64,000 bases of DNA from positions 13,144,001-13,208,000 of the forward strand of contig OX597837.1 of the NCBI GenBank assembly GCA_951406725.2. Reading direction: 5' to 3'. The position numbers and the translations under genes are program-made. This DNA comes from Octopus vulgaris. Lineage: Eukaryota. Positions 1 to 52,327 of this stretch are shown in pieces (positions within the stretch are counted from its first letter, which is position 1; each line of letters starts with the position of its first letter). Below the pieces are notes generated by a model that did not search any database, had not been told where the DNA came from, and saw only the letters and a program-made list of their open reading frames with translations.

Positions 1-489
1 GAACTATATGGACATGCACATATTCTGTAAGTTCAACACTTTTCATCGGATCTCCAGGAATCGAACTTATCTGTGATTCTTGTAAATTTCAATAACAATC
101 TGTTCCTCTACAGAATAAGATTGTCACTTTGCTTCTTACTCGGATTCCCTGAAATTTCGCACGATTGTACCCAAAATTTCTTCACATAACTTGATTAATA
201 ATTCACTATGAACTATATGGACATGCACATATTCTGTAAGTTCAAGACTTTTCATCGGATCTCCAGGAATCGAACTTATCTGTGATTCTTGTAAATTTCA
301 ATAACAATCTGTTCCTCTACAGAATAAGATTGTCACTTTGCTTCTTACTCGGATTCCCTGAAATTTCGCACGATTGTACCCAAAATTTCTTCACATAACT
401 TGATTAAAAATTCATTATGAGCTATATATGGACATGCACAAATTCTGTAAGTTCAAGACCTTTCATCGGATCTCCAGGAATCGAACTTC
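1..489. repeat. 209-bp tandem repeat (about 2.3 copies visible, truncated by window start)
   Basis: GAACTATATGGACATGCACATATTCTGTAAG recurs at 1, 210 and about 419; copies nearly identical. Confidence 0.95.
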
Positions 490-561
490 CTTCAATGCAG
501 TTAAACTTACACCCTCATTCGTATCTACCCCTTTTTATGTTTGGGAATCTCTGATGTTTTT

Positions 562-641
562 TCGGCTGACGAGTACGAGCCATCTATATTTACTGCATTT
601 TTTGTAGCTTATTAAAGATGTCCTCGAAACAATTGTACCGA
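562..641 (+). ncRNA. Type I hammerhead ribozyme (Penelope-like element type, palindromic helix III)
   Basis: TCGG-CTGACGA(566-572)-helix II (..CATCT/AGATG..CTC)-GAAA(626-629)-CAATTG-TA-CCGA; helix I TCGG/CCGA; predicted cut after GUA (637). Confidence 0.7.
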
Positions 642-782
642 GATTTTAATCCATTCTTGTTGCTTTTTTTCCTATTTGTAATCACCCCACTTGTCGTATG
701 GTTAACACCATATAGATTTCCGGTTAAGGACCATATTCAAGTGAATTCATTAGAATTCACTTGAATCTCAATTACTTAAACC

Positions 783-843
<61 letters not shown>

Positions 844-872
844 TACACATGATTGTTATCTTGCCATTTATA

Positions 873-925
<53 letters not shown>

Positions 926-927
<2 letters not shown>

Positions 928-1313
928 AGGCGCAATGGCCCAGTGGTTAGGGCAGCGGACTCGTGGTCATAGGATCGCGGTTTCGATTCCCAGACCGGGC
1001 GTTGTGAGTGTTTATTGAGCGAAAACACCTAAAGCTCCACGAGGCTCCGGCAGGGGATGGTGGTGATCCCTGCTGTACTCTTTCACCACAACTTTCTCTC
1101 ACTCTTACTTCCTGTTTCTGTTGTACCTGTATTTCAAAGGGCCGGCCTTGTCACTCTCTGTGTCACGCTGAATATCCCCGAGAACTACGTTAAGGGTACA
1201 CGTGTCTGTGGAGTGCTCAGCCACTTACACGTTAATTTCACGAGCAGGCTGTTCCGTTGATTCGGATCAACCGGAACCCTCATTGTCGTAACTGATGGAG
1301 TGCTTCCATCCAT
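926..1313 (+). mobile_element. tRNA-derived SINE
   Basis: A-box TGGCCCAGTGG and B-box-like GTTTCGATTCC head; related minus-strand copy at about 53615-53940; sits between (TA)n tracts. Confidence 0.8.
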
Positions 1314-1318
1314 CTTCC

Positions 1319-1358
<40 letters not shown>

Positions 1359-1493
1359 TATGTATAGATAGACACACACACACACTTACACACATACATG
1401 CACACACTGTCCTATAGTAACGAAGAATGCTGCATTGTAATTTCATTTGAGTTTATTAACTGAAAATATCTTCAACGTAATGTTGTGTTCCAG

Positions 1494-1648
1494 GCTGATG
1501 ACATATTTGAGGTTCCTGACAACTTGAACTTCAAATTTTGCATGAACTCCGCTTCACTGAACATGAAATCGCGAATAGTCAATGAGGATCTGAAGGTGGC
1601 AGAAGTGCCACCCTGGCAGGGTATGAAAAGAGAAGCGTGGGAATTAGT
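1494..1648 (+). CDS. CCDC87: CCDC87-like, first exon visible (gene starts upstream of window)
   Basis: ttccag|GCT ... TTAGT|gtatgt; ADDIFEVPDNLNFKF...PWQGMKREAWELV; phase 0 to 2. Confidence 0.7.
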
Positions 1649-1999
1649 GTATGTCATTTCATCATTTCATTTTGTTATTCTTGAGAATTTCAGAACAGAA
1701 TGGTATTTACTGTACTGTCAATGAGAATAATGTCCGTGGCATTCTTCACAAATTTCCAGGTGTGGATTTATAGGCACAGGCATGGCTATGTGGTTAAGAA
1801 GCTTGCTTCCAAACAATGTGGACTTGAGTTCAGTTCTGATGTGTGGCACCTTGGGCAAGTGTCTTCTACTATAGCCCCAAGCCAACCAAAACCTTGTGAG
1901 TGGATTTGGTCAAAGGAAACTGAAAGAAGCCTGTCATGTGTATATATAAGTATGTCTGTCTGCCTGTATGTTTTTATCTTTGAGTTTAATGTAAGTTCT

Positions 2000-2670
2000 T
2001 CAGAGAGTTCAAGCTGGTCGCTAAGAAAGTGACAAGACTTTTTGAGTTAAGAGGGTCCCCAGTGTTTATAAATATGCGGTCAAGTTGGTGTGTTGTTTGA
2101 ACCGTTGATACACACACCCAAATGCGTGCTTCCATTCACCTAAGAATCTCAGATGGAGAATCTTTGGAATGTCTTACAGATCTTCACTGTGCCACTAACA
2201 GAATGGATTTGGAGAATCCACATCAGTTTCTTTTGCTCTTTCTCCATGATACTGAGTATTTCTAGATAAATTTGTGGTACATAACCTAATGCACCTATGA
2301 TGCTAGGTACAAATGGGAATTCATAGTCAAGGTACAAAAGTTCCATTAATTTGCCATAGATGTTCTCTTTTTCTTGGACTTTTCATTGTACATTCACATC
2401 CACTGGGCAGCTGACCTCAACAACAGAGCCTGACTTGGTTCCCTGTCCTACAGAACAATATCAGTTCTGTTATGTTTGCACCGAATTATGCTTTTATTGG
2501 AGTGTTCCACCAGTGTTCCTTGTTTTTAAAGGTGTGAATACTTGATGGTTCTGATATCCTTTTGATGCATACATCAGGGCAGTCCATGCCATGGATAGTA
2601 TTGTAAATAGTCTTTGCAACTACATCATGCCTCAGAGGCAGGCAGTATCTCGCAGACATTTTGGAGCAGC
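2000..2670 (-). mobile_element. Degraded 3' fragment of an R4/Dong-type (restriction-like endonuclease) LINE
   Basis: Broken frames encode ARYCLPLRHDVVAK, KEHWWNTPI, VEVSCPVD, VPSIIGALGYVP. Confidence 0.7.
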
Positions 2671-2982
2671 TGATGATGATGATGATGATCTGGGTTCTTA
2701 TGTATGTATGTATGTATGTATGTATGTATGTATTTATGAATGCATGCATGTATGTATGTATGTATGTATGTATGTATGATGTATGTAAGTATGTATGTAT
2801 GTATGTATGTATGTATGTATGTATGTATGTATGATGTATGTATGTATGTAGGCATGTATGTATGTATGTACATACATATGCACACACACATGTACACATG
2901 CATGTATGTACCTAAGTATATATGTATGTATTCACACACATCGTTGACATGATAGCTATTGATTAAATATTGACTCATTCAG

Positions 2983-3028
2983 TCCACAGGTTCCTCGGAG
3001 ACACCAGAAGACAACCATATATCCACGG
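2983..3028 (+). CDS. CCDC87: CCDC87-like exon
   Basis: ttcag|T CCA CAG ... CCA CGG|gtaagt; 46 nt, phase 2 to 0, bridges neighbouring exons in frame. Confidence 0.65.
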
Positions 3029-3372
3029 GTAAGTTTAATTTCTTCTGTTCTAATAAATTCAAAATTACTTGAGGACCACAAAGACAAAGTTTGATCATCT
3101 AATATCTCCCAGTAACTTAGTGGTTTGGCAAAAGAGATCAATCGAATAAATACTATCCTTAGCAAAAAACCAAGTAGTGGGGTCAATTCATTCAACTTAA
3201 AATTCTTCGAGGCAGTGCCCCAGCATGGCCACAGTCTAACAACTGAAAAAAGTTAAGACATGAAAGATAAAGTATCACATTAGCCAGCCCCCTTTGTGGC
3301 CCCTTCTTACCATCATCTCTATTGTTAATGATAATTATTATTATTTCTTAACCAAAGTTTTAAATCTTTCAG

Positions 3373-3486
3373 AATCCCATGATTGTGATGCAAGACATGT
3401 CGGACGCGAAAAGGCAGAACGAATGGAAGACATGGTGGTTATCGTTTTTCAACGACAAAGACTGCCTCAAATATCTCAGCATGATG
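3373..3486 (+). CDS. CCDC87: CCDC87-like exon
   Basis: tttcag|AAT ... ATG|gtaagg; NPMIV...EWKTWWLSFFNDKDCLKYLSMM, similar to the CCDC87 WW..DYLKYL motif. Confidence 0.85.
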
Positions 3487-3492
3487 GTAAGG

Positions 3493-4040
3493 TTCTTCTT
3501 CTTCCTCCTCCTCTTCTTCTTCTTCTTCTTCTTCTTCTTCTTCTTCTTCTTCTTCTTCTTCTCCTCCTCCTCCTCCACCTACCCCCTCTCCTCTGCCCCC
3601 CCTCCCCTTCTTCTTCTTCTTATTATTATTATTCCTCCCCTCCCCCTCTTCCTCCTCCTCCTCTTCTTCTACTACTTCTTCTTCTTCTTCTCCTCCTCCT
3701 CCTCCTTTTTTTCTTCTCCTCCTCCCTTCTTCTTCTTCTTTTTCTTCTTCTTCTTCTCCTTCTTTCTTTCTTCTTCTTCTTCTCCTCCTCCTCCTCCTTC
3801 TTCTTCTTCTTCTTCTTCTTCTTCTTCTTCTTCTTCTTCTTCTTCTTCTTCTTTCTTCTTCTTCTTCTTCTTCTTCTCCTCCTCCTCCTCCTCCTTCTTC
3901 CTCTTCTTCTTCCTCTTCTTCTTCCTCTTCTTCTTCTTCTTCTTTTTCTTCTTCTTCTTCTTCTTCTTCTTCTTCTCCTCCTCCTCCTCCTCCTCCTCCT
4001 CCTCCTCCTCCTCCTCCTCCTCCTTCTTCTTCTTCTTCTT

Positions 4041-4107
<67 letters not shown>

Positions 4108-4128
4108 TGATTCTGATTCTGATTCTGA
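3493..4128. repeat. Compound microsatellite (CTT)n/(CCT)n then (TTA)n and (TTCTGA)n
   Basis: Directly visible; source of the poly-L/F/S/K/E ORFs. Confidence 0.98.
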
Positions 4129-4545
4129 AATGTTTGTATTGGAGCTTCTGGTGTGGATGGGCTCTGTGTTGTGTTCCTGAGCAAGACACCTTTTCCCATG
4201 TTGCTCCAGTTCACTCAGCCCTAGAAATGGGTTGTGACATCACTGGTGTCAAGCTGTATTGGCCCCTTTGCCTTTCCCTCGGATAACATCGGTGGCATGA
4301 AGAGAGGAAGCTGGTATGCATGGGTGATTGCTAGTCTTCCATAAATAAACTTGCCCAGACTTGTACCTTGGAGGGGAACTTTCTAGGTGCAATCCCACGG
4401 TCATTTTTGACTGAAAAGGGTCGCTACCCTTCACACTCATGATCATAATAAAGTGATGATAAAAGCAATCATTTTTATTTCTTGTGGTTTCATGTTTGTA
4501 TTTATTGTCATTGATTTTGGATCAATCATTTTTAGAACCCTGATG

Positions 4546-4587
<42 letters not shown>

Positions 4588-4895
4588 CAGTTGGCATTTG
4601 GAAGGGCATCCAGCTGTAAAAACATTGCCAAAACTGACCTCACCTGTGTTTATACCACGTAAAAAGCTCCCAGTTCATTCTGTAGCATTGTTGGTGTTTG
4701 AAAGGGCACCCAGCCATAAAATTCCTGCCAAAACAGACTCAGTAACCTGGGGTAGTCTTCTGCCTGGCCTGCTCCTATCAACCGTCCTACCTACCCATGC
4801 ATGAATTTAAGACAGACATTAAATGATGATAACGATCCTGGTGACAATGTTTGCTTAATAGCTTGTTTTTTGTGGGGTTTTTTGATCTGTTTCAG

Positions 4896-4999
4896 AAAAC
4901 AGATTTCCTTCATGTTATCTTCCATCTGTATGATGACGAAAACTTATTAGAAATCTTTAGATCAAAAGAAGAAGCGGAAAGATTGGCTGCGACTTTAAA
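4896..4999 (+). CDS. CCDC87: CCDC87-like exon
   Basis: tttcag|AAA ACA GAT TTC; KTDFLHVIFHLYDDE matches CCDC87 TDFLHVIF; donor AA|gttagt, phase 2. Confidence 0.88.
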
Positions 5000-5169
5000 G
5001 TTAGTATTTAGATGAGGTTTTTTTTGTTGTTGTTGTTATTGTTGTTGTTGCTGCTGCTATTGTTGTTGTTGTTGTTGTTGTTGCTGCTGCTGCTGTTGCT
5101 GTTGCTGCTGCTGTTGTTGTTGTTGTTGTTGTTAAGGCAGCAAATTGGCAGAACTATTGGTATGCTGGG

Positions 5170-5990
5170 CCTCTGGCTCTGAGTACGAATGTCTTGTTTT
5201 CATAGGTTCTGAATTAAAATCTTCCACCAAACTTTAGTCACAATTTATGTTCCTAACACTAGCTGAATGATAATACTAAGTTATTTTACTAAATTCTTTG
5301 TTATATTTAAAATTAATTGAAAGAAACCACAAAGCATCTCAACAGAAATATGGTAACAAAAGGGTTAAAACACATGGCTGGTATAGTTTCATGAAAAATA
5401 TGCTTTGCAGAAGTTTAACCCTTTTGATACCAACCCAGCTGAAACCACCTCTGACCCTGTAGTACAAATGTCTTGTTTTCATAAGTTTTCAATTAAAATC
5501 TTTCACTAAACCTTAGTCACAATTTATGTTCCTAACACTAGCTTAATAATAACTAAGTTATTTTACTAAATTCTTTGTTATATTTAAAATTAATTGAAAG
5601 AAACCACAAAGCATCTCAACAGAAATATGATAACAAAAGGGTTAAAATATATAATAGAGAAACGATTTTTTACCCTTTTGTTACCAACCCAGCTGAAACC
5701 ACCTCAGGCTCTGTAGTACAAATGTCTTGTTTTCAAAAGTTTTGAATTAAAATCTTCCACCAAACCTTAGTCACAATGTATGATCCTAACACTAGCTTAA
5801 TGATAACTAAGTTGTTTTACTAAATTCTTTGTTATATTTAAAATCAATTGAAAGAAACACAGAACATCTCAAAATAAATAAAATAACGAAAAGGTTAATA
5901 ACGATAACATGATTTTAATAAATTCATTTCTAAATTAAATGAAACAAAAGCAATATATTTCAAGATGAATATGGTAGCAAAAGAGTTAAA
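5170..5990. mobile_element. Cluster of 3-4 piggyBac-type MITE copies (best copy 5419-5641)
   Basis: TTAA|CCCTTTTGATACC ... TAACAAAAGGG|TTAA; same ~220-bp body repeated; further copies at 15951-16617 and about 27590-27812. Confidence 0.8.
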
Positions 5991-6042
5991 GACAATTCAC
6001 ACGTAGAATTTATCCTGGAATTTTGGTATTTGAATGTTGCAG

Positions 6043-6173
6043 AATGGAGAAAGAAATGGTTGCCGCTGAGACTGAAAGAAAAGTAGAGGAGCTGCATAAG
6101 AAGAAGTCCCAATATGAAGAAGGCTTTTGGAACGCTGAAACCATTTTTCTTGGAGGATTAGGAAGTGACCCAA
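6043..6173 (+). CDS. CCDC87: CCDC87-like exon
   Basis: ttgcag|A ATG GAG ... GAC CCA A|gtaagt; ...YEEGFWNAETIFLGGLGSDP; phase 2 to 1. Confidence 0.85.
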
Positions 6174-6306
6174 GTAAGTTATCTCCGTGGTGCTATTTGC
6201 TGGCAATTCTTTCTGTTAGGTTTTTTAAGAGTAATTATATTTAGATGTTCATGCTAAAAGTGTTGCGATATGCATGTGTGTGTGTGTGTGTGAGTGAATG
6301 CATGTG

Positions 6307-6344
<38 letters not shown>

Positions 6345-6592
6345 CATGTATATATACATTCATATATATGTATATGTATATTTGTATTCTTGTGTATGTA
6401 TGTGTATATACATACATACATGCATATATATGTTTACTAATTTATATTATTTATTTATATCATTATGTAAATGTATATTTTTTATATGTATAGGAGTGTG
6501 AGTATATGCACTCATATGTATATATATATGTTGTATTGTGGGTACGCACCCACACCCACGTGGGTATATGTGTAGACTGTGTTATATTACAT

Positions 6593-6723
6593 AATCTCCG
6601 AAGAGGCCTTGTGATATATTTTTGTTAATGTCTCATTTATATCTATATATTGACCAACCATAAAGGGCTAATATTGGTAAAATGAGACATAATTATCGAC
6701 ATGGCTGAAACAGCTGTAAGATT
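6593..6723 (+). ncRNA. Decayed hammerhead ribozyme (core CCGAAGA instead of CTGANGA)
   Basis: AATCT-CCGAAGA-GGCC...GGCT-GAAA-CAGCTG-TA-AGATT. Confidence 0.55.
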
Positions 6724-7139
6724 TAATGTATGCTTATATTTATATTTACTTGTATTTATATTCTTTTTTATATATATTCTAATTATTATACAACATTACT
6801 CTTTTATGTACACTTTTTTATGTACATTCCTTTATGTACACTGATTTGTTCTGCTTTTTATATCTAACCCTACAGTCTCTTATGTGGTGGTTTAATAAAG
6901 TATGTGATTGAGTATTATCTGGTAATTGATATTTGATTTAGATGTATTTCTCCATTTTCTTATCTTGTATTAGTAATTTGTGATAAATCATTTTACCTTT
7001 GCCCATATAATACAGTAAATGAATTGATTGCATCGCAATCATTAACATTTATGTATTAACTTTGTTGGGTACTTCAATAGCAGTATATTGGATATACGTT
7101 ATCCCATAGAGGGTTGCATTTACAACCTCTATCTCAATT

Positions 7140-7181
<42 letters not shown>

Positions 7182-7931
7182 TAGTTGAATGAATTATCTT
7201 ATTAAGGATAATTCGAATTAACCGATACCTGGGTAGCAAATTCACATCAGAAAAAACACGGTTGAAGTTACATGCCTAGGGCATAGATTACGTGCTTTTG
7301 TGTGGAAATTTGTATGTTTTTGCACTGGCAAAAATACACCTTTCACTCATATGTATAATGATTAATATAGATAACCCCTTGAATTTTAATTAATATAACT
7401 TCTTTTTTTATATATGTCACCCCCATAGTCATAAAAATATTTTTTTTTATACTTTCAAAGAACTACTACCCAATCCAGTGAGGTTGTTGCCTTAGTCCCT
7501 CTACCTCGCTCCCCTCTTTCTCTCTCTTTCTCTCTCCATTTCCCTCTTTCTATAGTAAGCACAATCAAACACACAGACACAACCTCTCGCCTCACCACTG
7601 TCTGTTTTCTGACATCTACCCATCCACATACACAATCACGCATACACATACATACACACACACATTAATGCAGTTATATACAGTCACACACACAGGCACC
7701 CATTCACAAAAGAAATTAACAAAATCCACCCTTCATACGACCAGCACCCTTTCACCTTCCTACTCTTTTGCCTCCCTCCTCCAACTTCGTTTGAACCCTT
7801 GAACCTTTCGAACCTTCTAGATTCTTCTACTTTCAACCACTTTGACGCCACTCCTTATAAAGGAATATTTTAAAGAGACACTCAGTGTGAGCAATCATCT
7901 GAAAGTTTTTTGTGCATTTTGATGTTGACAT

Positions 7932-8036
7932 AAGTTCCTTGCTTTTCCTGATGAGAAAGCGGCATAATGTACTCCTTATTCCTTCGCAATTAGGAATATG
8001 CAGCCTTCGAAACATATGTCGAAAATAAAGGAATTT
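7932..8036 (+). ncRNA. Type I hammerhead ribozyme, intact core
   Basis: TTTTC-CTGATGA(7948-7954)-GAAAGCGGCATA...TATGCAGCCTTC-GAAA(8009-8012)-CATATG-TC-GAAAA; helix I extends (TTCCTT/AAGGAA); predicted cut after GUC (8020). Confidence 0.8.
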
Positions 8037-8069
8037 TGTTAATTCGTCGTTCAGCTCCATTCTTTCATA

Positions 8070-8106
<37 letters not shown>

Positions 8107-8314
8107 CACACACACTTGCTGGTGACACATATAAAAGGCACCCACTACACTCTCAGAGTGGTTTGCCTTAGGAAGGGCCTCCAACTGTAGAAACGAAGCC
8201 AAATTCAGACTGGAACCTGTTGTAGCTCTCTAGTTTACCAGTTTCATTTGAGCTATCTAACCCATACTAGCATGGAAAGCAGACGTTAAATGATGATGAT
8301 CATCATATATATTT

Positions 8315-8500
8315 GAAGGTGGTGAGCTGGCAGAATTGTTAGCACACCGGGTCAAATGCTTAACGGTATTTCGTCTGCTGCTATGTTCTAAGTTCAAATT
8401 CCACCAAGGTCGACTTAATCTTTCATCCTTTCGGGGTCAATTAAATAAGTACCAGTTATGCACTGGAGTCAATGTAATCGATTGAATCCCTTTGTCTGTC
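8315..8500 (+). mobile_element. tRNA-derived SINE, family with CCTTTCATCCTTTCGGGGTCGAT central domain
   Basis: GGTGAGCTGGCAGAA head, GTTCAAATTCC B-box; many copies (about 10050-10200, 13720-14070, 30340-30460, 59715-59915 on -, 62775-62990 on +). Confidence 0.75.
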
Positions 8501-8779
8501 TGGATTGCCTTCTTTCTTCACTTAGAAGGAATCATCATGGACCAACTAATTGCTGTCACTGAAATACCAACATCAAACTGCAACACCGCATCACCTTCCT
8601 CTACCTATCACAGGCTAATGTCCAGTAGAAAACATTGACTCTTTTCAATTGATCTTGCATTCAAACCCCAATGGCTGAAGACTAGCCACACGCCTGAAAC
8701 TCAGAGTACCAAAGAGTCTGAATCAAACAGTTTTGATCTCTATATAAATCTACACACACATATATTTTGTACATATATA

Positions 8780-9345
8780 TTGGGTTGTCCGGAAAGTTCG
8801 TGCCGATTTATAGTAGCTTACCTTTCGACTTATCTTAGAACATCGTTGAGTCCATAAAATAGGATTTGACTACACCTCCATTTAGAGCACAGTTTAAGCT
8901 GTCTTCTTGTGGAAGAAGGTTTATGTTCCTATAACCTGTGTTAATTCTATAACCCTTTAAAATGGAAGATAAGAAAGTTCATTTTTGGCACTTGATGCTT
9001 TTGGAACCAGACAAGAATTGCTGCAGCTCAGCTGGGATGTGTTACCCCACCCTCCATATTCACCAGATATTGCTCCTTCGGATTTCCACTTATTCAGCTC
9101 TCTGCAGAATAGTCTTAATGGTAAAAATTTCAATTCCTTGGATGACGTAAAAAGATATCTTGATGAATTCTTTGCCATGAAACCACCTCAATTCTGGGGA
9201 AGAGGGTATTTTCAAGTTAAAGGAAAGATGGAGACGCATTGTGCAACAAAATGGTTCATATTTGGTTGATTAAAAATGTGATGGCAAGTATTTATTGACC
9301 TTTTTCTTTCCTTTAAAAATCAGCACAAACTTTCAGGACAACCTA

Positions 9346-9346
<1 letters not shown>
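8780..9346 (+). mobile_element. Internally deleted mariner transposon
   Basis: TA-flanked ~30-bp TIRs TTGGGTTGTCCGGAAAGTTCGTGCCGATTT / AAATCAGCACAAACTTTCAGGACAACCTAA; transposase C-terminus with LPHPPYSPDIAPSDFHLF. Confidence 0.92.
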
Positions 9347-9388
<42 letters not shown>

Positions 9389-9542
9389 TAATATAGGATA
9401 AAGTGTTTCGAAAAAAATTTTATCAATTGCAGCATATTAAAACATACCTTTAAAGGTTAAATTTATAAACAACTTATAAATAAGGGCAAAAGAAAAAATT
9501 TTGGCATTAGAATTTGTTTTCTTTTGCCCTTATTTATAAGTT

Positions 9543-9583
<41 letters not shown>

Positions 9584-9587
<4 letters not shown>

Positions 9588-9745
9588 TGTGTGGTAAGTA
9601 GATTGTTTACCAACCACATGGTTCCGGGTTCAGTCCCACTGCGTGGCACCTTGGGCAAGTGTCTTCTACTATAGCCTCGGGCTGACCAAAGCCTTGTGAG
9701 TGGATTTGGTAGACGGAAACTGAAAAGAAGCCCGTCGTATATATG
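9584..9745 (+). mobile_element. Abundant tRNA-derived SINE (GGCTGTGTGGTAAG... family)
   Basis: Near-identical to 15150, 18385 and 33604 copies; contains CCTTGGGCAAGTGTC core-like block. Confidence 0.85.
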
Positions 9746-9850
9746 TATATATATATATGCATGTGTGTGTGTTTGTGTGTCTGTGTGTGTGTGTATCATC
9801 ATCATTTAACATCCGTGTTCCATGCTAGCATGGCTGGGACTACATATATG

Positions 9851-9895
<45 letters not shown>

Positions 9896-10270
9896 CTTAT
9901 CATTTGTACATATATGGCAGTGTGGTAAGAATCTTGCTTCCAACTACATGGTTCCAAAGCCAGTCCCACTCTGTGGCACCTTTGGCAAGGATCTTCTACT
10001 ATAGCCCCAGGTCAACTAAAGCCTTGTGAGTAGATTTTGTTGACAGAAACTGATCCCAGTGCACAACTGGTACTTATTTTATTGACCCTGAAAGGATAAA
10101 AGGCAAAGATGACCTTGGTGGAATTTGACCTCAGAACCTAATGACAAATGAAATGCTGCTAACCATTTTGTCCATTTTGTCCAATTCTGCCAGTTCACCA
10201 TTTTAAAACTGTCCATGATATTAAGAAGATAACTAATAGCAATTATGTTTTGCGACATATTTTCTCATAG

Positions 10271-10360
10271 GCGCCCTAGTTTCAAAGGACAGTACTCAAA
10301 TATTTGGTGATGAAAAAACACCAGACATTGAGATTTCAAGCCACCATGATGGAAAGGACG
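10271..10360 (+). CDS. CCDC87: CCDC87-like exon
   Basis: ctcatag|GC GCC ... GAC G|gtaagt; 90 nt, phase 1 to 1, open frame. Confidence 0.7.
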
Positions 10361-11329
10361 GTAAGTTTGAAATTTTTTTTTTATTATTAACAAAAATTTG
10401 GGTGATTTCTCTTTGTTATGCTGTTTAGTTCTTTTAGACGTGATGAGAAATGAACTACAGAGTAACTTGGTTAAGATTCACAAGTTTGTTCCTTCTCAAG
10501 CCATGCCTGGCTCATAAGGGCTGGTTTCCTGGTTTCTTAGCATATAGGTTCCCCACCTGGATAGGATGCTGGTCCGTCACAGGTGAGCTGTTAGATGCAG
10601 GAGGAAAGAGTGAGAGAAAACTGTGGCGGAAGAGTCAGCAGAAATTTGCCGTTACCTTCTGCAAGAGCCGCATGGATGATTCACAAGTGAGTATGATGTG
10701 GTAGCTTTCATTAATTGCTTTAGTTGTGAACAGACCTAGGCACCCTCTTAGCTTGTCCACTCTTGACACAATGGACCATGAATGATGCAGCAGTTGGAGA
10801 AAAGAGGGCTGCACCAACACTATATATATATTAATGAGAGAGATAAGTATATTCATTCAACACAGTCATTGCGTTTGGCACTGTGTGAAAATTATTGCAT
10901 AACTTAAATGCTTTTTCATTTGTTACACAACCTCTGATGATTTGATGATGTAACCCATTTATAAGGTATTTCTTTATATGGCAGAGATTATTGTTAATGA
11001 AATGCATGTAAGAATGTATTGACTAAGGGAAAAATTTATCTCCAAGCTTGTTTTCTATTTTCACTTTGTGTTCAAAATATTAGAATGTAACTTCAGTAAG
11101 AAACTTAGAACAATAACTCATTTGGTTCCTTGTACGTGGATCTTTTGAAGTATAACAGAGCTCAAGCATTTCCAAACATCACAAGCAATATCCCACTTTG
11201 CAAAAATATCATATACAGTAATCCCTCACCACATCGTGGTTCACCTATTACACACTCAGTATATCGTGATCCACCAATCACGCACTTGGTACATTGCGGA
11301 TTATTCTGGCTAATATATGTAAATTTATA

Positions 11330-11725
11330 TCGCAGCGTCACCTTACTGGCACTCAAGCCCCGTGCTAGTAGGGTGTTAAGAGCACGATCCGAACGTGATC
11401 GTTGCCAGAGCAGCTATCTAGCCTCTGTACCGGTGGCACGTAAAAGACACCGTTCAAGCGTGATTGTTACCAGCATCGCGTTACTGGCACCTGTGCCGGT
11501 GCCATGTGTAAAAGATTCGAGCGAGGTCATTGCCAGTACCACCTGACTGGCACGTAAAAGCACCCACTACACTCTTGGAGTGGTTGGTGTTAGGAAGGGC
11601 ATCCAGCTATAGAAACTCTACCAGATCAAGATTGAAGCCTGGTGCAGCCATCTGGTTCACCAGCCCTCAGTCAAATCGTCCAACCCATGCCTGCATGGAA
11701 AGTGGACGTTAAACGATGATGATGA
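11330..11725 (+). mobile_element. SINE ending in (GAT)n with internal ~60-bp repeats
   Basis: 3' end GCATGGAAAGTGGACGTTAAACGATGATG shared with copies at 4590, 8120, 16148, 23720, 48800, 50700. Confidence 0.8.
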
Positions 11726-11996
11726 GACTCCTCAGTATATCCAGGTTTCTGTGGCCAGGAGGTATTTATATTTTTTTGGATTTTAATTATTTCTGTGGGA
11801 AGTTTTGGAACATAACACCCGCGACAGTCGAGCGATTATTGTATACTCATTGATTTTTTTCTCTTGTAGATACTCATTGATGTTATTAAAAATATTACGA
11901 ATACTCATTAGCTTAAAGCAAAATATTGTGAATACCCATTCCTCCCTTATTTTGATATTGTTCACATTCAGTGTCTTGTTTTGTTTCTTTATCCAG

Positions 11997-12009
11997 GCTC
12001 ACCCAGAAC
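11997..12009 (+). CDS. CCDC87: CCDC87-like 13-nt microexon
   Basis: ttgtttctttatccag|GCTCACCCAGAAC|gtgagt; phase 1 to 2, gives GSPRT across junctions. Confidence 0.6.
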
Positions 12010-15697: not shown

Positions 15698-16681
15698 CCC
15701 TTTTGGTGCCATATTTCTCTGTAAAACACCACCTTTGCTTCAGTTAATTCTTGAACTGGTGAAGAATTTGTCAAAGGAACTTTTAAAATCAAATCAAATC
15801 AAATCAAATTTATTGGCAGAAGAGTACAATGAGCTTAAGCCATGTAAAAAAAAATAAAAACCAGTTATTGTTTGTTTTTTTTTTTCATCTGGTGTTTGGG
15901 ACATAAATTATTATGAAATTTTGATGACAGGTCTTAATTGGGATCTCTTACCCTTTCATTACCAACCCGGCTGAAACCGACTCTGGCTCTGTAGTACAAA
16001 AGTTTTGTTTTCATAAGTTTTGAATTAAAATCTTCTACCAAACCTAAGTCACAATTTATGTTTCTAACACTAGTTGAATGATAACTAAGTTATTTTACTA
16101 AATTCTTTGTTATATTTAAAGTAACTGACAGAAACACAGAGCATCTCATCATCATCATCATCATCATCATCATTTAACATCCGCTTTCCATGCTAGCATG
16201 GGTTGGACGGTTCAACTGGGGTCTGGGGAGCCCGAAGGCTGCACCAGGCCAGTCAGATCTGGCAGTGTTTCTACAGCTGGATGCCCTTCCTAACGCCAAC
16301 CACTCCGAGAGTGTAGTGGGTGATTTTATGTGCCACCGACACAGGTGCCAGACGAGGCTGGCGAACGGCCACGCTCGGATGGTGTTTTTTATGTGCCACC
16401 GACACAGGTGCCAGACGAGGCTGGCGAACGGCCACGATCGGATGGTGTTTGTTACGTGCCCACAGCACGGAGGCCAGTCAATGCGGTACTGGCTACGGCC
16501 ACGTTCGGATGGTTTTCTTGTGTGCCACCGGCACTGGTACCACAAGGATACAAATTCCATTGATGTTCATCTATTTTGATTTGGTTTGATCTCAAAATAA
16601 ATACAGTAACAAAAGGGTTAAAACTTAAAGTTTTTAATTGCAGAACCAGAGGCAGTCTCAAGCAGACTGGTACCAAAAGGG
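15698..16681. mobile_element. Nested insertions: SINE inside MITE inside MITE
   Basis: Outer CCCTTTTGGT...ACCAAAAGGG|TTAA; inner MITE 15951-16617; SINE 16149-16588 flanked by ATCTCA duplication. Confidence 0.7.
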
Positions 16682-23719: not shown

Positions 23720-24295
23720 TCATCATCATCATTTAGCGTCCGCTTTCCATGCTAGCATGGGTTGGACGGTTCAACTGAGGTCTGGGAAGCCAGAAGGCTG
23801 TACCAGGCCCAGTCTGATCTGGCAGTGTTTCTACAGCTGGTTGCCCTTCCTAATGCCAACCACACCGTGAGTGTAGTGGGTGCTTTTTACGTGCCACCCA
23901 CACAGGTGCCAGACGGGGCTGGCAAACGGCCACGGATGGATGGTGCTTTTTACATGTCACCGGCACGGGGGCCAGGCAAGGCTGGCAACGGCCACGATCG
24001 GATGGTGCTTTTTACGTGCCACCAGCACGGGGGCCAGGCAAGGCTGGCAACGGCCACGATCGGATGGTGCTTTTTACGTGCCACCAGCACGGAGGCCAGT
24101 CGGGGCGGCACTGGCAACGGACACGGTTGGGTGGTGCTTTTTACGTGCCACCAGCACGGGGACCAGGTGAGGCTGGCAACGGCCATGATCGGATGGTGCT
24201 TTTTACGTGCCACTGGCACGGGGGCCAGTTGGGGTGGCGCTGGCAACAGACACGGTCGGGTGGTGCTTTTTACGTTCCACCGGCATGGGGGCCAG
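23720..24295 (-). mobile_element. (GAT)n-tailed SINE with about 7 internal ~60-bp tandem units
   Basis: GGTGCTTTTTACGTGCCACC recurs every ~60-70 bp from 23879 to 24280. Confidence 0.85.
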
Positions 24296-25240
24296 TTCTT
24301 ATACATAAACAAAAAAAGATAAGAATATGAACTGACATGGGTAAAGCTTTTTCAAGCTGGAATTAAACACACGTTAACCATTTACAGTTCAAGCAAAGCT
24401 GTGTACATTTATATTTGACACGCTCGTACACACTTAATTGTATGAAGCCATTTGTTGTGGTGATTATATCAGAAGAGAAATTCCCTTTATGTTTGAAAAC
24501 ATACCAGGCTGGACTATAAATGACCGGACACGTGTTTCTATAAACTACAGGACAAGTGTTTCTGCGTCTTTACACTTCATCGGTTACAGCTTGACAAATA
24601 TGTGTTCCATTGGCCTTTTGTTAACATTTTTTCTTAAAGTCGATACCTTCACTTCTGAGGGCATGAAGAGATTATTTCAGTGAACCTATTTATCATTTTA
24701 CTCATGGTCAATAGCTTTTCAAGAATTCAGTATAGGGTTTCGTTATTTCACAAAACTATTTATATCTCACTAGATAAGCTCAGCAGAGACCTGATACACA
24801 CCCTCAGTCCCCTCTGCTTTATGCTTACCCTAGATATAAGCCTGTCAATAGTAAATCCTTCAGATGACACACTAGGTATAGGTACCAGTTATTACAAACG
24901 ATCCTGCATTATTATTATTATTGTTGTTGTTATTTCCTACTAATGTGCAATAATTAGGAAAGTTTGGATATTTTACTGTTACCAAAAGGGTTGGAAAATG
25001 TTTTTTTTTTCATTCGGATTACATAAAGCAGGATATTCTGAGAAAGTTGTTTGGAATTTATTTTTCATTTAAATAAACAAGAAAGGTAAATCTTTTAATA
25101 CTTTAGTTTGTTTTTTTTTTTGTTGCTTTTTCCTCGGACATTTATGAATATAGGTGTCTAAAACAACAGAAAGACATACCACAACATACAAAAAAAACCC
25201 ATAAAACACATGGAAAACGACAGCCATTTGCACCAAATTA

Positions 25241-32759: not shown

Positions 32760-33440
32760 ACTGTGCTTTGCACCAGAGAACACTATGGATTATCTGAAGA
32801 CAAAACATATCGCCAATGAAATAACGTGTGCTTGCACACATTCGAGGAATTTTTAAAATTCTAGCCGTTCTATCGACGGGTTTGTCAATAGAAAGGGCGC
32901 TAAATGTAAAAAAAAAAAAAACTCTTTCCATCAGGAAAGGTACATTTACAGAAAACTCTAAGCTGCCATTATATGTAATTTTTTATTTAATGTTTGATTT
33001 GATTTTCGAATTGCCTGTGACGATATCTGCAAGAATGAACTGCATTGATATCAAAATTGCCGTTCAGTGGTACCAGTTCTGTAGAGATGTTTGTTTGGCA
33101 AAACTGCTGCGGGACAAAACTCCCATTGGTGGTCCGGATCATACAGTGGAGATCGATGAAAGCTTGTTCTTCAATAGCAAGAACAATGTAGGAAGAATGT
33201 GTCGCAAAATTTGGTTTGTCGGATGTTATGACACCACAACGAGAAAAGGATTTCTTCAATGTGTACCCGATAGGAGTACAGAGACGTTGTAGAATGTTTT
33301 CAGACAAAATGTTCTTCCAGGAACTACTGTTATGACAGACAATTTGGCAAGCTACTCTAATCTCCACATACTCGGTTACATTCACCCCCATACGGTAAAT
33401 CATTTCCCAAACTTCATAGATCGGTCACCGGGGCATGTAC
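32760..33440 (+). pseudogene. Merlin (IS1016/ISXO2-like) DDE transposase remnant
   Basis: SIRKGTF, WYQFCRDVC, IGGPDHTVEIDESLF, VPDRSTETL*, VLPGTTVMTD, HTVNH; in-frame stop at 33290 and frameshifts. Confidence 0.88.
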
Positions 33441-33767
33441 AGATCGGCGGAGGTAAAGATCATGGACCACACCCTTTGAGATATTTTTTTGGTTTTATTT
33501 TTACATGAACACACTACCTCGAGGGCAGAGATTCCGAATCTGCAAAAAATCTACATTTCAAAATTTATATTGTACAGGCAAAAAAAAAAAAAATACGTAA
33601 AAGACGCAGGGGTGGCTGTGTGGTAAGTAGCTTGCTTACCACCCACATGATTCCGGGTTCAGTTCCACTGTGTGGCACCTTGCGCAAGTGTCTTCTACTA
33701 TAGTCTCGGGCCGACCAAAGCTTTGTGAGTGGATTTGGTAGACGGAAACTGAAAGAAACCCGTCGTA

Positions 33768-35009: not shown

Positions 35010-38000
35010 CTATGAAATTTCATTGGAAAAAAATCTCCATTTTCCTAAAATTTATGACAGAAAAAGATTGGGTCTTTTTGAATTTTTCAATGTCCTCTCT
35101 CCACCTGCTTGGAAAAAGATTTTTTCCCCCACAAATTTACTTCAAAATTGTAATTTATGCTGTTTGATAAAATTTCTATGAAATTTCATTGGAAAAAAAT
35201 CTCCATTTTCCTAAAATTTATGACGGAGAAGATTGGGTCTTTTGAATTTTCAATGTCCTCTCTCCACCTGCTTGGAAAAGATTTTTCCCCCACAAATTAC
35301 TTCAAAATTGTAATTTATGCTGTTTGATAAATATTTCTATGAAATTTCATTGGAAAAAAATCTCCATTTTCCTAAAATTTATGAAGGAAAAGATTGGGTC
35401 TTGTGAATTTTCGGTGTCCTCTCTCCACCTGCTTGGAAAAGATTTTTCCCCCACAAATTACTTCAAAATTGTAATTTATGCTGTTTGATAAATATTTCTA
35501 TGAAATTTCATTGGAAAAAAATCTCCATTTTCCTAAAATTTATGACAGAAAAGATTGGGTCTTTTGAATTTTCGATGTCCTCTCTCCACCTGCTTGGAAA
35601 GATTTTTCCCCCACAAATTTCTTCAAAATTGTAATTTATGCTGTTTGATAAGTATTTCTCTGAAATTTCATTGGAAAAAAATCTCCATTTTCCTAAAATT
35701 TATGACAGAAGAGATTGGGTCTTTTGAATTTTCGATGTCCTCTCTCCACCTGCTTGGAAATGATTTTCTCCCACAAATTTCTTCAAAATTGTAATTTATG
35801 CTGTTTGATAAGTATTTCTATGAAATTTCATTGGAAAAAAATCTCCATTTTCCTAAAATTTATGACAGAAAAGATTGGGTCTTTGAATTTTCGATGTCCT
35901 CTCTCCACCTGCTTGGAAAAGATTTTTCTCCCACAAATTTCTTCAAAATTGTAATTTATGCTGTTTGATAAATATTTCTATGAAATTTCATTGGAAAAAA
36001 ATCTCCATTTTCCTAAAATTTATGACAGAAGAGATTGGGTCTTTTGAATTTTCGATGTCCTCTCTCCACCTGCTTGGAAAAGATTTTTCTCCCACAAATT
36101 TCTTCAAAATTGTAATTTATGCTGTTTGATAAGTATTTCTATGAAATTTCATTGGAAAAAAATCTCCATTTTCCTAAAATTTATGACAGAAAAGATTGGG
36201 TCTTTTGAATTTTCGATGTCCTCTCTCCACCTGCTTGGAAAAGATTTTTCCCCCACAAATTTCTTCAAAATTGTAATTTATGCTGTTTGATAAGTATTTC
36301 TATGAAATTTCATTGGAAAAAAAATCTCCATTTTCCTAAAATTTATGACAGAAAGATTGGGTCTTTTGAATTTTCGATGTCCTCTCTCCACCTGCTTGGA
36401 AAAGATTTTTCTCCCACAAATTTCTTCAAAATTGTAATTTATGCTGTTTGATAAGTATTTCTATGAAATTTCATTGGAAAAAAATCTCCATTTTCCTAAA
36501 ATTTATGACGGAAAAGATTGGGTCTTTTGAATTTTCGATGTCCTCTCTCCATCTGCTTGGAAAAGATTTTTCCCCCACAAATTTCTTCAAAATTGTAATT
36601 TATGCTGTTTGATAAGTATTTCTATGAAATTTCATTGGAAAAAAATCTCCATTTTCCTAAAATTTATGACAGAAAAGATTGGGTCTTTTGAATTTTCGAT
36701 GTCCTCTCTCCACCTGCTTGGAAAAGATTTTTCCCCCACAAATTTCTTCAAAATTGTAATTTATGCTGTTTGATAAGAATTTCTATGAAATTTCATTGGA
36801 AAAAAATCTCCATTTTCCTAAAATTTATGACAGAAAAGATTGGGTCTTTTGAATTTTCGATGTCCTCTCTCCACCTGCTTGGAAAGATTTTTCCCCACAA
36901 ATTTCTTCAAAATTGTAATTTATGCTGTTTGATAAGTATTTCTCTGAAATTTCATTGGAAAAAAATCTCCATTTTCCTAAAATTCATGACAGAAAAGATT
37001 GGGTCTTTTGAATTTTCGATGTCCTCTCTCCACCTGCTTGGAAAAGATTTTTCCCCCACAAATTTCTTCAAAATTGTAATTTATGCTGTTTGATAAGTAT
37101 TTCTATGAAATTTCATTGGAAAAAAATCTCCATTTTCCTAAAATTTATGACAGAAAAGATTGGGTCTTTTGAATTTTCGATGTCCTCTCTCCACCTGCTT
37201 GGAAAGATTTTTCCCCCACAAATTTCTTCAAAATTGTAATTTATGCTGTTTGATAAGTATTTCTATGAAATTTCATTGGAAAAAAATCTCCATTTTCCTA
37301 AAATTCATGACAGAAAAGATTGGGTCTTTTGAATTTTCGATGTCCTCTCTCCACCTGCTTGGAAAAGATTTTTCCCCCACAAATTTCTTCAAAATTGTAA
37401 TTTATGCTGTTTGATAAGAATTTCTCTGAAATTTCATTGGAAAAAAATCTCCATTTTCCTAAAATTCATGACAGAAAAGATTGGGTCTTTTGAATTTTCG
37501 ATGTCCTCTCTCCACCTACTTGGAAAAGATTTTTCCCCCACAAATTTCTTCAAAATTGTAATTTATGCTGTTTGATAAGTATTTCTATGAAATTTCATTG
37601 GAAAAAAATCTCCATTTTCCTAAAATTTATGACAGAAAAGATTGGGTCTTTTGAATTTTCGATGTCCTCTCTCCACCTGCTTGGAAAAGATTTTCCCCCA
37701 CAAATTTCTTCAAAATTGTAATTTATGCTGTTTGATAAGTATTTCTATGAAATTTCATTGGAAAAAAATCTCCATTTTCCTAAAATTTATGACAGAAAAG
37801 ATTGGGTCTTTTGAATTTTCGATGTCCTCTCTCCACCTGCTTGGAAAAGATTTTTCCCCACAAATTTCTTCAAAATTGTAATTTATGCTGTTTGATAAAT
37901 ATTTCTATGAAATTTCATTGGAAAAAAATCTCCATTTTCCTAAAATTTATGACAGAAAAGATTGGGTCTTTTGAATTTTCGATGTCCTCTCTCCATCTGC

Positions 38001-47000: not shown

Positions 47001-47100
47001 TCTCCACCTGCTTGGAAAAGATTTTTCCCCCACAAATTTCTTCAAAATTGTAATGTATGCTGTTTGATAAGTATTCCTATGAAATTTCATTGAAAAAAAT
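35010..47100. repeat. Satellite array, 161-bp unit, about 75 copies
   Basis: Unit CTATGAAATTTCATTGGAAAAAAATCTCC...GATAAATATTT; period confirmed e.g. 39032 to 39193; very low divergence. Confidence 0.99.
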
Positions 47101-48799: not shown

Positions 48800-49200
48800 C
48801 GTTGTTGTTTAATGTCCACTCTCCATGCTTGCATGGGTTTGACGGTTTGACTGAGGACTGGCAAGCCAGAAGGCTGCACCAGGCTATAATCTAATCTAGC
48901 AAGGTTTCTACAGCTGGATACCCTTCCTAATGCCAACCACTCTGAGAGTGTAGTTGGTGCTTTTTCTGTGCCACCTGGATGGAAACCAGTGAAGCGGCAC
49001 TGACATCAACCATGCTTGAATGGTGCTTTTTACATGCCACCAGCATGGGATCCAGTGAAGCAGAACAGGCATCAAAAATGCTCAAATGGTGCTTTTTACA
49101 TGCCACTCTCGTATACATGCCACCAGCACAGGAGCCAGTCAAGTGGTACTGGCATCGTCCACGCTCAAATGGTGCTTTTTACATGCCACCGGCCAGTCGG
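48800..49200 (-). mobile_element. Older (GAT)n-tailed SINE copy with internal repeats
   Basis: Homologous to 23720 copy, with CpG decay. Confidence 0.75.
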
Positions 49201-50934: not shown

Positions 50935-51990
50935 GATGTTGTTGGCATCCTTTTTGTCTCGGGAGACAATGGAGTTGTGCATAAAATAGTCTAGTCCGGC
51001 TTTTACATTTCATGTCCTAATACATTTCCTGCTGTGGCTGTGTAGCCCTATCCTGGACAAACACTCCCTCTGGCAGGTGCCGCAAATGTAGCGAAGACTG
51101 TTCCTGGCTTGTTGTAATGTCATAGTTTCTTGCTGACGTTTTTTCTTGTCTTTCCATTTCTCCTCTCTCTCTCTCTGTTACTCCTTTGTATTCCCTCTTT
51201 TACGGTACATCGCCAATCTCCACGGTTGCTGGCAACTGCTTCCCAGTTGCTAATATTGATGTTGCAGGCCTTCATGTCCCTTTTGCAAACATCCTTGTAA
51301 CGTAAGAACGGTCTTCCCACAGACCTAGTACCCCTAGCAAACTCTCCGTAGAATATGTCCTTGGGGATTCTGCCATCTTTCATACAGCTAACATGCCCAA
51401 GCCATCTCATACGTCTTTGTGTGAGGAGTGCAAACATGCTTGGTATTCCTGCTCGCTTGAGGACATCTTTGTTGGGGATATGATTCTGCCATTTGATGCG
51501 AAGGATTTTCCGGAGGCAGCGCAGGTGAAAGATGTTTAGGCGACGCTCTTGGCATGTGTATGGCATCCAAGTCTCACTTCCATACAGTAGAGTGCTAAGT
51601 ACACATGCCTGGTAGATCTTCATTTTCGTGGTCTTGGTCAGCTTATTGTTGTCCCATGCCCGTTTGGAGAGTTGGGCCATCGCAGCAGCTGCCTTGCCAA
51701 TGCGTATATTGAGCTCAGCATCAAGGGATAGGTTGTAGGTGACGGTAGCGCCAAGATAGGTAAACTTCTCCACCTCCTGTAATCTGTGGTCTCCAATATG
51801 TATGTTTGGGATGTCCGATGTAGCCTGACCCATGATGTTGGTCTTCTTGAGGCTGATAGCTAAGCCAAAGTCGTTACATGCTTGCTCAAAACAGTTGATG
51901 AGCCTTTGTAGGGCTTCTTCTGTGTGTGATACCAGAGCGGCATCATCAGCAAATAGCATCTCCTTGATCAGGCCACTTCTCATTTTGGTC
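50935..51990 (-). mobile_element. 5'-truncated RTE-clade LINE (RT C-terminus, thumb, C2H2 tail, 3' UTR)
   Basis: 287-codon ORF LFADDAALV, FGLAISLKKT, FTYLG, VLSTLLYGSETW, RWLGHV, RPFLRYKD; CGTCQRECLSRIGLHSH in a shifted frame; ends in (CAA)(CAT)n. Confidence 0.95.
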
Positions 51991-52327
51991 TTGCTACTGC
52001 CATTACTACTGCTGTTACCACTGCCTCTGCTACTGCTGATAGTGATATTGCTGCTGCTACTACAACTGCTGCTGCTGCTAATGATGAATATTAGTGGTTG
52101 AAAATAAATATATAAAACAAACGTAGAAAAAAAAATGAAAAATCTAATAATAATTTAACATTACTTAAAAAGGTAGTGGGTAGCGAACTTCTTCACTACT
52201 TCAGGGAGTGACGACCCTGCCTGACACGAGTTCCGGGCTCAGCTGGCTCCGGCTGACAGTACCCAGTATGGGCCCCTATCCAGGGTTACGGAAGGGAGAC
52301 AACCTACAAAGAATATATATATATATA

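What the first reader, a model, noticed from the sequence alone, without database searches (positions are those of the whole stretch)
7932..8036. Best-preserved hammerhead: complete core and GUC cleavage site
CTGATGA, a G-C closing pair of helix II (GAAAGCGGCATA/TATGCAGCCTTC with an inner TATTCCT/AGGAATA hairpin), GAAA, palindrome ACATATGT, GUC and helix I TTTTC/GAAAA extended by TTCCTT/AAGGAA are all present. It ends about 40 nt before a (TA)n tract, with no coding sequence nearby.
Basis: partly seen in the sequence, partly recalled or inferred. Interest (0 to 1): 0.75.

Follow-up and report, generated by a model that had tools for sequence, protein, structure and literature searches.

The report
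Long-armed hammerhead in Penelope-like repeat
This is a complete hammerhead self-cutting RNA motif with an unusually long second arm, carried by one worn, partly flipped copy of a very common animal repeat that is likely the end piece of a Penelope-like jumping gene; the copy is predicted to cut poorly on its own, so it is a variant of a known kind rather than a new system.

Summary
The motif is real. All type I hammerhead core letters are present at 7943-8025, with the predicted cut after C8020. A strict descriptor finds it once in the window and in 0 of 100 shuffles. Rfam RF00163 scores 25.5 bits, below its cut-off of 34, skipping 50 nt of helix II. In other copies, the 143-nt left part follows the hammerhead directly, so here it is flipped. 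[quoted passage not shown] No reverse transcriptase is linked, so PLE membership is inferred, not shown. This copy carries both sides of the cut site, so its template was likely uncut; its active fold is predicted 6-7 kcal/mol uphill. Verdict: a new variant of a known kind. The long helix II and the long flipped tail are the notable parts.

The parts
7932..8036 (+). Type I hammerhead motif with extended helix I
7948..7954 (+). Core CUGAUGA (C3-A9)
7955..8008 (+). 54-nt helix II domain: G10.1-C11.1, 10 of 12 pairs, 12-nt bulge, terminal hairpin
   Evidence: variant 7958 A>G restores a G-C pair
8009..8020 (+). GAAA core, 8-nt palindrome (2-bp helix III alone, 8-bp duplex in a dimer), GUC; predicted cut after C8020
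   Evidence: duplex -7.0 kcal/mol
7889..8066 (+). Part A: shared high-copy module around the hammerhead, ending at the right (TA)n; inferred first priming end
   Evidence: depth table; 4 of 32 listed pieces begin at 7889
7179..7321 (-). Part B: 143-nt tail with an 8-bp hairpin 12 nt from its end, flipped in this copy; follows part A after about 15 nt of linker in other copies
   Evidence: loose ends behind 7321 (X6, X13) and opposite-strand joint 7304/8066 (X6)
7322..7888 (+). Lower-depth non-coding body with CT and CA simple repeats, upstream of part A
7142..7178 (.). Left (TA)n tract, inferred target
8067..8106 (.). Right (TA)n tract, inferred target
561..642 (+). Second, diverged type I hammerhead motif with a 53-nt helix II domain, GUA site at 637; followed directly by a tail with a terminal hairpin and (TA)n at 784

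Best explanation
7932-8036 is a type I hammerhead motif with a 54-nt helix II inside one non-coding copy (7179-8066) of a high-copy repeat, likely the terminal-repeat module of a Penelope-like retroelement, inserted into (TA)n with its tail flipped. Shown: the motif; the repeat; the (TA)n flanks; the order hammerhead, linker, tail in other copies; the flipped tail here. Inferred: an RT and GIY-YIG endonuclease supplied in trans nicked both strands of a (TA)n tract; one strand primed at the RNA tail end and copied 143 nt, the other primed about 46 nt past the ribozyme and copied about 745 nt; the two cDNAs were joined, losing about 15 nt of linker (a twin-priming-like event). Inferred: intact family members would cut after the GUC mainly as dimers through the palindrome, or with help from the element's protein. 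This copy likely came from an uncut RNA, since it holds both sides of the cut site, and it is predicted to cut poorly alone (my estimate about 0.2 for monomer cleavage, about 0.45 for a tandem dimer).
For: Motif beyond chance. Repeat status: 2360, 1074, 566 and 277 contig pieces laid from 4 of 4 runs of three organism labels, with depth peaks on parts A and B. Direct order elsewhere: loose ends behind 7321 in X6 (3 contigs) and X13 (2) end in 14 and 12 letters identical to the reverse complement of the end of part A; opposite-strand joint 7304/8066 in X6. Recurring inversion: 12 of 14 listed joints link part B (7217-7321; 5 of 12 at 7319-7321) to different places in part A (7902-8028). Of 4 listed variants inside the motif, the 2 at paired positions keep or restore pairing (7958 A>G, 20-54% of summed depth; 8023 A>G, 61-68%) and the other 2 lie in loops. 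The second motif at 566 has the same plan with different paired letters in helices I and III (local alignment score above 300 of 300 shuffles, narrowly). Literature: PLE hammerheads have a small palindromic helix III, occur mostly as single truncated motifs and cut weakly (PMC4209133); PLEs show inverted 5'-truncated copies, a tail at one end only, and (TA)n bias (PMC8557442); a purified PLE protein nicks and extends both strands of AT-rich DNA from two internal RNA start sites that define the tail, uses uncut RNA, and its hammerhead cuts only with protein (PMC11167929).
Against: No RT or GIY-YIG frame is linked to this copy or to any relative I could read, and no genome was held. The tail is about 160 nt with linker, against 30-40 bp in described PLEs. 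Each joint rests on one contig, laid at 80% likeness, and 11 of the 12 same-strand joints have under 30 letters on the shorter side, which the tool flags as weak. Tables were cut (51 variants, 303 loose ends, 4278 pieces not shown), so core conservation across the family was not measured; two loose-end consensuses (X6, X13, before 8027) show C11.1 changed to U and a broken palindrome. Rfam score is below the family cut-off. The tails of the two window motifs are not alike above chance (136 of 300 shuffles as good). Target-site duplication cannot be read in (TA)n.
Confidence: 0.7

Rival explanations
1. A dispersed monomer of a non-LTR retrozyme: a roughly 340-nt non-coding unit (A, linker, B) that sits in tandem elsewhere, is cut by successive hammerheads into monomers and circles, and is reinserted by PLE proteins.
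For: Module size (about 178+15+143 nt) fits retrozyme monomers (about 300 bp, PMC7229834; family consensus 51-972 bp, preprint 10.64898/2026.07.22.740005). No coding frame. Two long contigs have other sequence upstream of part A (records 20 and 22).
Against: No tandem unit here and no second copy in the window. None of the 14 listed joints runs from the end of B back to the start of A. Only 1 of 12 same-strand joints starts at 8021, the base after the cut; 10 start upstream of it.
Confidence: 0.17
2. The hammerhead is real, but the repeat moves by another route, for example as a rolling-circle (Helitron/Helentron-like) or other DNA element that captured the motif; the hairpin near the end of B would be its stop signal.
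For: Both window elements end in a hairpin 12-14 nt before (TA)n, and the body holds simple repeats. The likeness to Helitron ends is recalled, not tested by a call.
Against: Variable internal break points joined to a flipped end fit target-primed reverse transcription with two primers (PMC2837659) better than DNA transposition. Hammerheads of this design are tied to PLEs in the papers read.
Confidence: 0.07
3. The 3' end of a Naiad-type PLE, whose 'half-core' motifs have halves 35-50 nt apart and which also target (TA)n.
For: PMC8557442 lists 8 half-core Naiads, two from cephalopods, and (TA)n preference.
Against: The ends of two octopus Naiad entries printed in supplement part 24 carry the halves in the opposite order and do not resemble this element by eye; of 7 short motifs searched in that file, 5 gave no hit and 2 gave 4 unrelated hits (line breaks and cut runs can hide matches).
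Confidence: 0.04
4. Chance arrangement of short motifs in an AT-rich repeat.
For: CTGANGA is at chance frequency; the free fold is not the hammerhead; score below Rfam cut-off.
Against: 0 of 100 shuffles give the full descriptor; a second motif of the same plan at 566; variants keep pairing.
Confidence: 0.02

Closest known systems
Type I hammerheads of metazoan Penelope-like elements (Cervera and de la Pena 2014, PMC4209133; Rfam RF00163)
   Same: Full core, G10.1-C11.1, short palindromic helix III suited to dimers, 5-bp helix I, mostly single motifs in truncated copies.
   Different: Helix II domain of 53-54 nt, against 4 bp (canonical) or 6-8 bp (PLE variants); no extra base between A9 and G10.1; below the Rfam cut-off.
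Poseidon element PAc of Anolis (Frangieh et al. 2024, PMC11167929)
   Same: Hammerhead upstream of two element ends that define a tail; AT-rich target; uncut RNA used as template; both strands extended.
   Different: Tail about 160 nt rather than 30-40; no protein frame found; activity untested here.
Neptune, Hydra and Naiad PLE clades (Craig et al. 2021, PMC8557442)
   Same: (TA)n targets, inverted truncated copies, tail at one end; canonical hammerheads in Hydra and other C-terminal-endonuclease PLEs.
   Different: Clade cannot be assigned without the RT; Naiad ends seen in the supplement differ.
Non-LTR retrozymes (Cervera and de la Pena 2020, PMC7229834; preprint 10.64898/2026.07.22.740005)
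   Same: Non-coding, AT-rich, type I hammerhead, unit near 300-350 nt, thought to derive from PLEs.
   Different: No tandem array or second hammerhead here; circular RNA not shown.
L1 twin priming (described in PMC2837659)
   Same: Two inverted pieces of one RNA with a small internal deletion.
   Different: No poly(A) tail, no readable target duplication, different element class.

Membership tests
Type I hammerhead ribozyme (RF00163) | Core CUGANGA, GAAA and NUH in order | tested here: met
Type I hammerhead ribozyme (RF00163) | G10.1-C11.1 pair and three helices with helix I open | tested here: met
   helix III only 2 bp as a monomer
Type I hammerhead ribozyme (RF00163) | Rfam gathering score (34 bits) | tested here: not met
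   25.5 bits, E 2e-4, 50 nt of helix II skipped by the model; none at gathering
Type I hammerhead ribozyme (RF00163) | Covariation of helices with invariant core | tested here: inconclusive
   2 of 2 listed paired-site variants keep pairing; second motif differs in paired letters; 51 variant rows hidden; two decayed loose ends
Type I hammerhead ribozyme (RF00163) | Loop 1 to loop 2 tertiary contact | not testable with these tools
   The usual 4-bp helix II geometry is absent; a substitute contact cannot be tested by folding alone
Type I hammerhead ribozyme (RF00163) | Site-specific self-cleavage | not testable with these tools
   Only contigs were available; active fold predicted 6.0-6.8 kcal/mol uphill
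Penelope-like element | RT plus GIY-YIG endonuclease frame | tested here: not met
   None in this copy; 0 of 55 nearby frames; 1 RVT_1 hit among 147 distant frames, 43 kb away. Filed only as a likely non-coding derivative
Penelope-like element | Hammerhead within the terminal repeat module | tested here: inconclusive
   Hammerhead sits in a shared terminal module, not yet linked to a PLE frame
Penelope-like element | Inverted 5'-truncated piece and a tail at one end only | tested here: met
   joints and loose ends
Penelope-like element | Tail of 30-40 bp | tested here: not met
   About 160 nt with linker
Penelope-like element | (TA)n insertion bias (Neptune, Hydra, Naiad) | tested here: met
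   (TA)n on both sides here and after the 566 element; only two loci seen
Non-LTR retrozyme | Two or more tandem units each with a hammerhead | tested here: not met
   arrays elsewhere in the genome could not be checked
Non-LTR retrozyme | Circular monomer RNA | not testable with these tools
   No raw RNA reads offered
Naiad PLE | 3' end like described cephalopod Naiads | tested here: not met

The most novel reading that the evidence does not exclude
This animal lineage carries a very abundant, so far unrecognised class of PLE hammerheads whose 53-54-nt helix II is a conserved working domain (a protein-binding or tertiary-contact module, possibly holding the start codon), invisible at Rfam cut-offs and to short-spacer descriptors; and the many flipped-tail copies record two-strand priming from two RNA start sites about 160 nt apart, making the unresolved integration step of PLEs testable from one genome.
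Probability: 0.3. Interest if true: 0.62.

Novelty: new variant of a known kind. Interest (0 to 1): 0.4.

Why it matters
Hammerheads in animal PLEs and retrozymes are known, and 235 RF00163 hits were already counted in the giant squid draft (PMC6962438). What is less ordinary is a helix II domain several times the usual length, kept at the same size in two diverged elements. A published core descriptor allowed only a 7-17 nt spacer (PMC8557442), so such motifs would be missed and ribozyme counts in these genomes could be far too low. The long flipped tail offers a genomic test of how PLEs finish insertion and whether the ribozyme cuts before or after copying. I found no description of this variant in 9 searches of the held library, which lacks most subscription papers, Lunse et al. 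2017 and Repbase reports.

Tried and rejected
Own genome: none held. Metagenome pattern scan: 1 hit, L001, a G+C-rich bacterial-type contig without helix I, rejected as chance. Genome contigs: 0, 0 and 4 hits in three scans; none of the 4 has CTGANGA within 80 nt upstream. Viral contigs: 0 in two scans. Expression: no RNA holder listed; run X13 is only guessed to be RNA and shows contigs, so it is used as sequence evidence only; no read-end pile-ups could be seen. The 64-aa open frame through the 566 motif: 0 hits in 1.84 billion proteins and none in Pfam, so the start-codon idea stays a lead. A second hammerhead on the minus strand of part B: rejected, both core halves are imperfect and the scans did not list it. 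Two further relaxed hits at 27455 and 48302 lack an exact palindrome and were not followed. Clustering of 7 of 12 joints at 8007-8028 as a sign of cleavage: rejected, since 5 of the 7 lie upstream of the cut and short products and contig length bias explain it. Summed depth as copy number: not used, the tool says it is not one. Rfam hits in 1-12000 were miRNA-type and other sub-threshold matches, mostly on simple repeats. Earlier notes by place and by sequence: none. Lunse et al. 2017 was not held; I saw it only as cited in PMC6765202.

Full report
Observation. The described letters are at the stated places (positions): helix I 7943-7947 with 8021-8025, a 2x2 loop and 9 more pairs out to 7932/8036, CTGATGA at 7948-7954, a G7955-C8008 pair, GAAA at 8009-8012, an 8-nt palindrome at 8012-8019 and GUC ending at C8020. 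CTGANGA alone is no signal (28 seen, 29.3 expected). A strict descriptor (helix I of 5 pairs or more, helix II of 3 or more, exact palindrome) hits only here and in 0 of 100 shuffles made in 500-nt blocks. The 105 nt fold better than 200 of 200 shuffles (z -3.29). Rfam gives nothing at gathering score in the window and no hammerhead among 86 weak hits in 1-12000, but on 187 nt RF00163 is the best of 3 hits (25.5 bits, cut-off 34, E 2e-4), aligning every core base and skipping 50 nt of helix II.

Condition of this copy. The free fold is not the hammerhead: the 5' strand of helix I pairs with the 5' strand of helix II and closes over the core. Forcing the active pairs costs 6.0-6.8 kcal/mol of ensemble energy; with the natural 7958 A>G variant the cost is 2.2. 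A double hammerhead through the palindrome can be built (8-bp duplex, -7.0 kcal/mol) but is 9 kcal/mol above the free dimer for this copy. These are predictions that ignore tertiary contacts and Mg2+.

Context. The window is AT-rich and full of simple repeats; I take it for an octopus-like animal genome from recalled repeat features, which no call confirms. No genome was held. The motif lies in 7179-8066, between (TA)n tracts at 7142-7178 and 8067-8106. Of 24 listed runs, 20 hold part of this stretch, under four organism labels. I laid 4 of the 24 at 80% likeness: 2360, 1074, 566 and 277 contig pieces fit, 29 of 30 bins are covered in each run, and depth peaks on 7180-7320 (part B) and 7900-8066 (part A). 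Depth is not a copy number, but so many differing pieces mean a high-copy repeat. No other copy of A or B is in the window.

Structure of the insertion. Loose ends behind 7321 in X6 (3 contigs) and X13 (2) end in 14 and 12 letters identical to the reverse complement of the end of part A, and X6 has an opposite-strand joint 7304/8066. So in other copies the order is A, about 15 nt of T-rich linker, then B read on the minus strand, which ends in an 8-bp hairpin 12 nt before (TA)n. Here B is flipped to the far end and the linker is gone. Twelve of 14 listed joints show the same flipped arrangement with other break points (B 7217-7321, 5 of them at 7319-7321; A 7902-8028). Each is one contig and 11 of 12 have under 30 letters on the short side, so they are weak singly. 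Two inverted pieces of one RNA with a small deletion is the twin-priming pattern (PMC2837659, passages). PLEs are described with an inverted truncated copy, a tail at one end only and (TA)n bias (PMC8557442, passages), and a purified PLE protein nicks and extends both strands of AT-rich DNA from two internal start sites that define the tail (PMC11167929, main text parts 1-2 of 4). The tail here is about 160 nt, not 30-40.

Family variation. Four of 40 shown variants lie in the motif: 7958 A>G restores a helix II pair (20-54% of summed depth), 8023 A>G keeps a helix I pair as a wobble (61-68%), and 7942 and 7987 are in loops; none of the 40 is a core base, but 51 rows were hidden, and two loose-end consensuses show C11.1 changed to U and a broken palindrome. 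A second motif at 566 has a 53-nt helix II domain, other paired letters in helices I and III and a GUA site; it aligns to this one narrowly above 300 of 300 shuffles, has a damaged helix II base (10.8 kcal/mol penalty), and is followed directly by a tail, a terminal hairpin and (TA)n. The two tails are not alike above chance. Two diverged elements with the same helix II length suggest a kept feature, on a sample of two.

Was the RNA cut? This copy holds both sides of C8020, so its template was uncut or religated (inference). Ten of 12 joints enter part A upstream of the cut, one at 8021 and one at 8028; summed depth shows no step at the cut in 3 of 4 runs and rises 1.7-fold in X6. This agrees with the PAc result that uncut RNA is the main substrate and that its hammerhead cuts only with protein, and with the weak cleavage of PLE hammerheads even as dimers (PMC4209133, parts 1-2 of 4; PMC6765202, passages).

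What was not found. No RT or endonuclease near the motif (0 of 55 frames); one RVT_1 hit among 147 distant frames, 43 kb away. Frames under 55 aa, low-complexity frames and the 35-47 kb satellite were left out. Collection scans gave 5 hits in 6 scans, all rejected. The 64-aa frame through the 566 motif has no relatives. Naiad half-core motifs were a lead, but the ends of two octopus entries in supplement part 24 of 59 have the halves in the opposite order and look unrelated. No tandem units were seen, so the retrozyme definition (PMC7229834, passages; preprint 10.64898/2026.07.22.740005, parts 1-2 of 5; its supplements were closed) is not met here.

Novelty. Known: type I hammerheads with palindromic helix III in animal PLEs; 235 RF00163 hits in giant squid (PMC6962438, passage); 31 recently active PLE families in Octopus vulgaris, with no mention of ribozymes in the main text (PMC13282606, passages). 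'Long helix II' in the viral paper found means about 6 bp (PMC13725137, passages). Nine library searches showed no 50-nt helix II in an animal element; the library is partial and Lunse et al. 2017 was not held. PMC10886601 (passages) was irrelevant. One earlier AI note from another genome reaches a similar PLE reading; it is not counted as support.

Verdict. A real hammerhead motif in a worn, partly flipped copy of a high-copy repeat, most likely a non-coding PLE end (0.7). It works like PLE hammerheads by design; membership rests on structure, not on a linked protein. New variant of a known kind; interest 0.4.

Noticed in passing
window 561-783 (+): Second hammerhead with a 53-nt helix II domain, followed by a tail with a long terminal hairpin and (TA)n; direct, unflipped order.
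   Followed up: partly
window 1-488: 209-bp tandem repeat (2.3 copies, 97% alike, cut by the window start) just upstream of the 566 motif; may be part of that element.
   Followed up: no
window 7998 and 618 (+): Both motifs have an ATG in the 3' strand of helix II, in the same frame relative to the GAAA core; the PAc frame also starts in stem II. The frame stops after 15 codons at 7998; the open frame at 570-761 has no relatives.
   Followed up: partly
window 8768-9358: 590-bp element with 45-nt imperfect terminal inverted repeats in TA context; Tc1/mariner-like by recall, no Pfam hit.
   Followed up: no
window 35010-47100: 161-bp satellite, 75 copies, 97% alike.
   Followed up: no
window 51123-52154 (-): Reverse transcriptase fragment, RVT_1 E 7e-8; RTE-type LINE by recall.
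   Followed up: no
window 33293-33505 (+): DDE_Tnp_IS1595 fragment, E 1e-4, below cut-off; Merlin-like transposase remnant by recall.
   Followed up: no
window 927-1318: About 390-bp element between (TA)n tracts with a tRNA-like head by eye, SINE-like.
   Followed up: no
window 16319-16477, 23879-24296, 48955-49189: Related 62-66-bp tandem units in three places, probably one SINE-like family.
   Followed up: no
PMC8557442 supplement file 1, part 24: The 3' ends of two octopus Naiad entries carry the GAAA half before the CUGAUGA half around a short palindrome, which could be a permuted hammerhead; the paper lists Naiads as lacking canonical ones.
   Followed up: no
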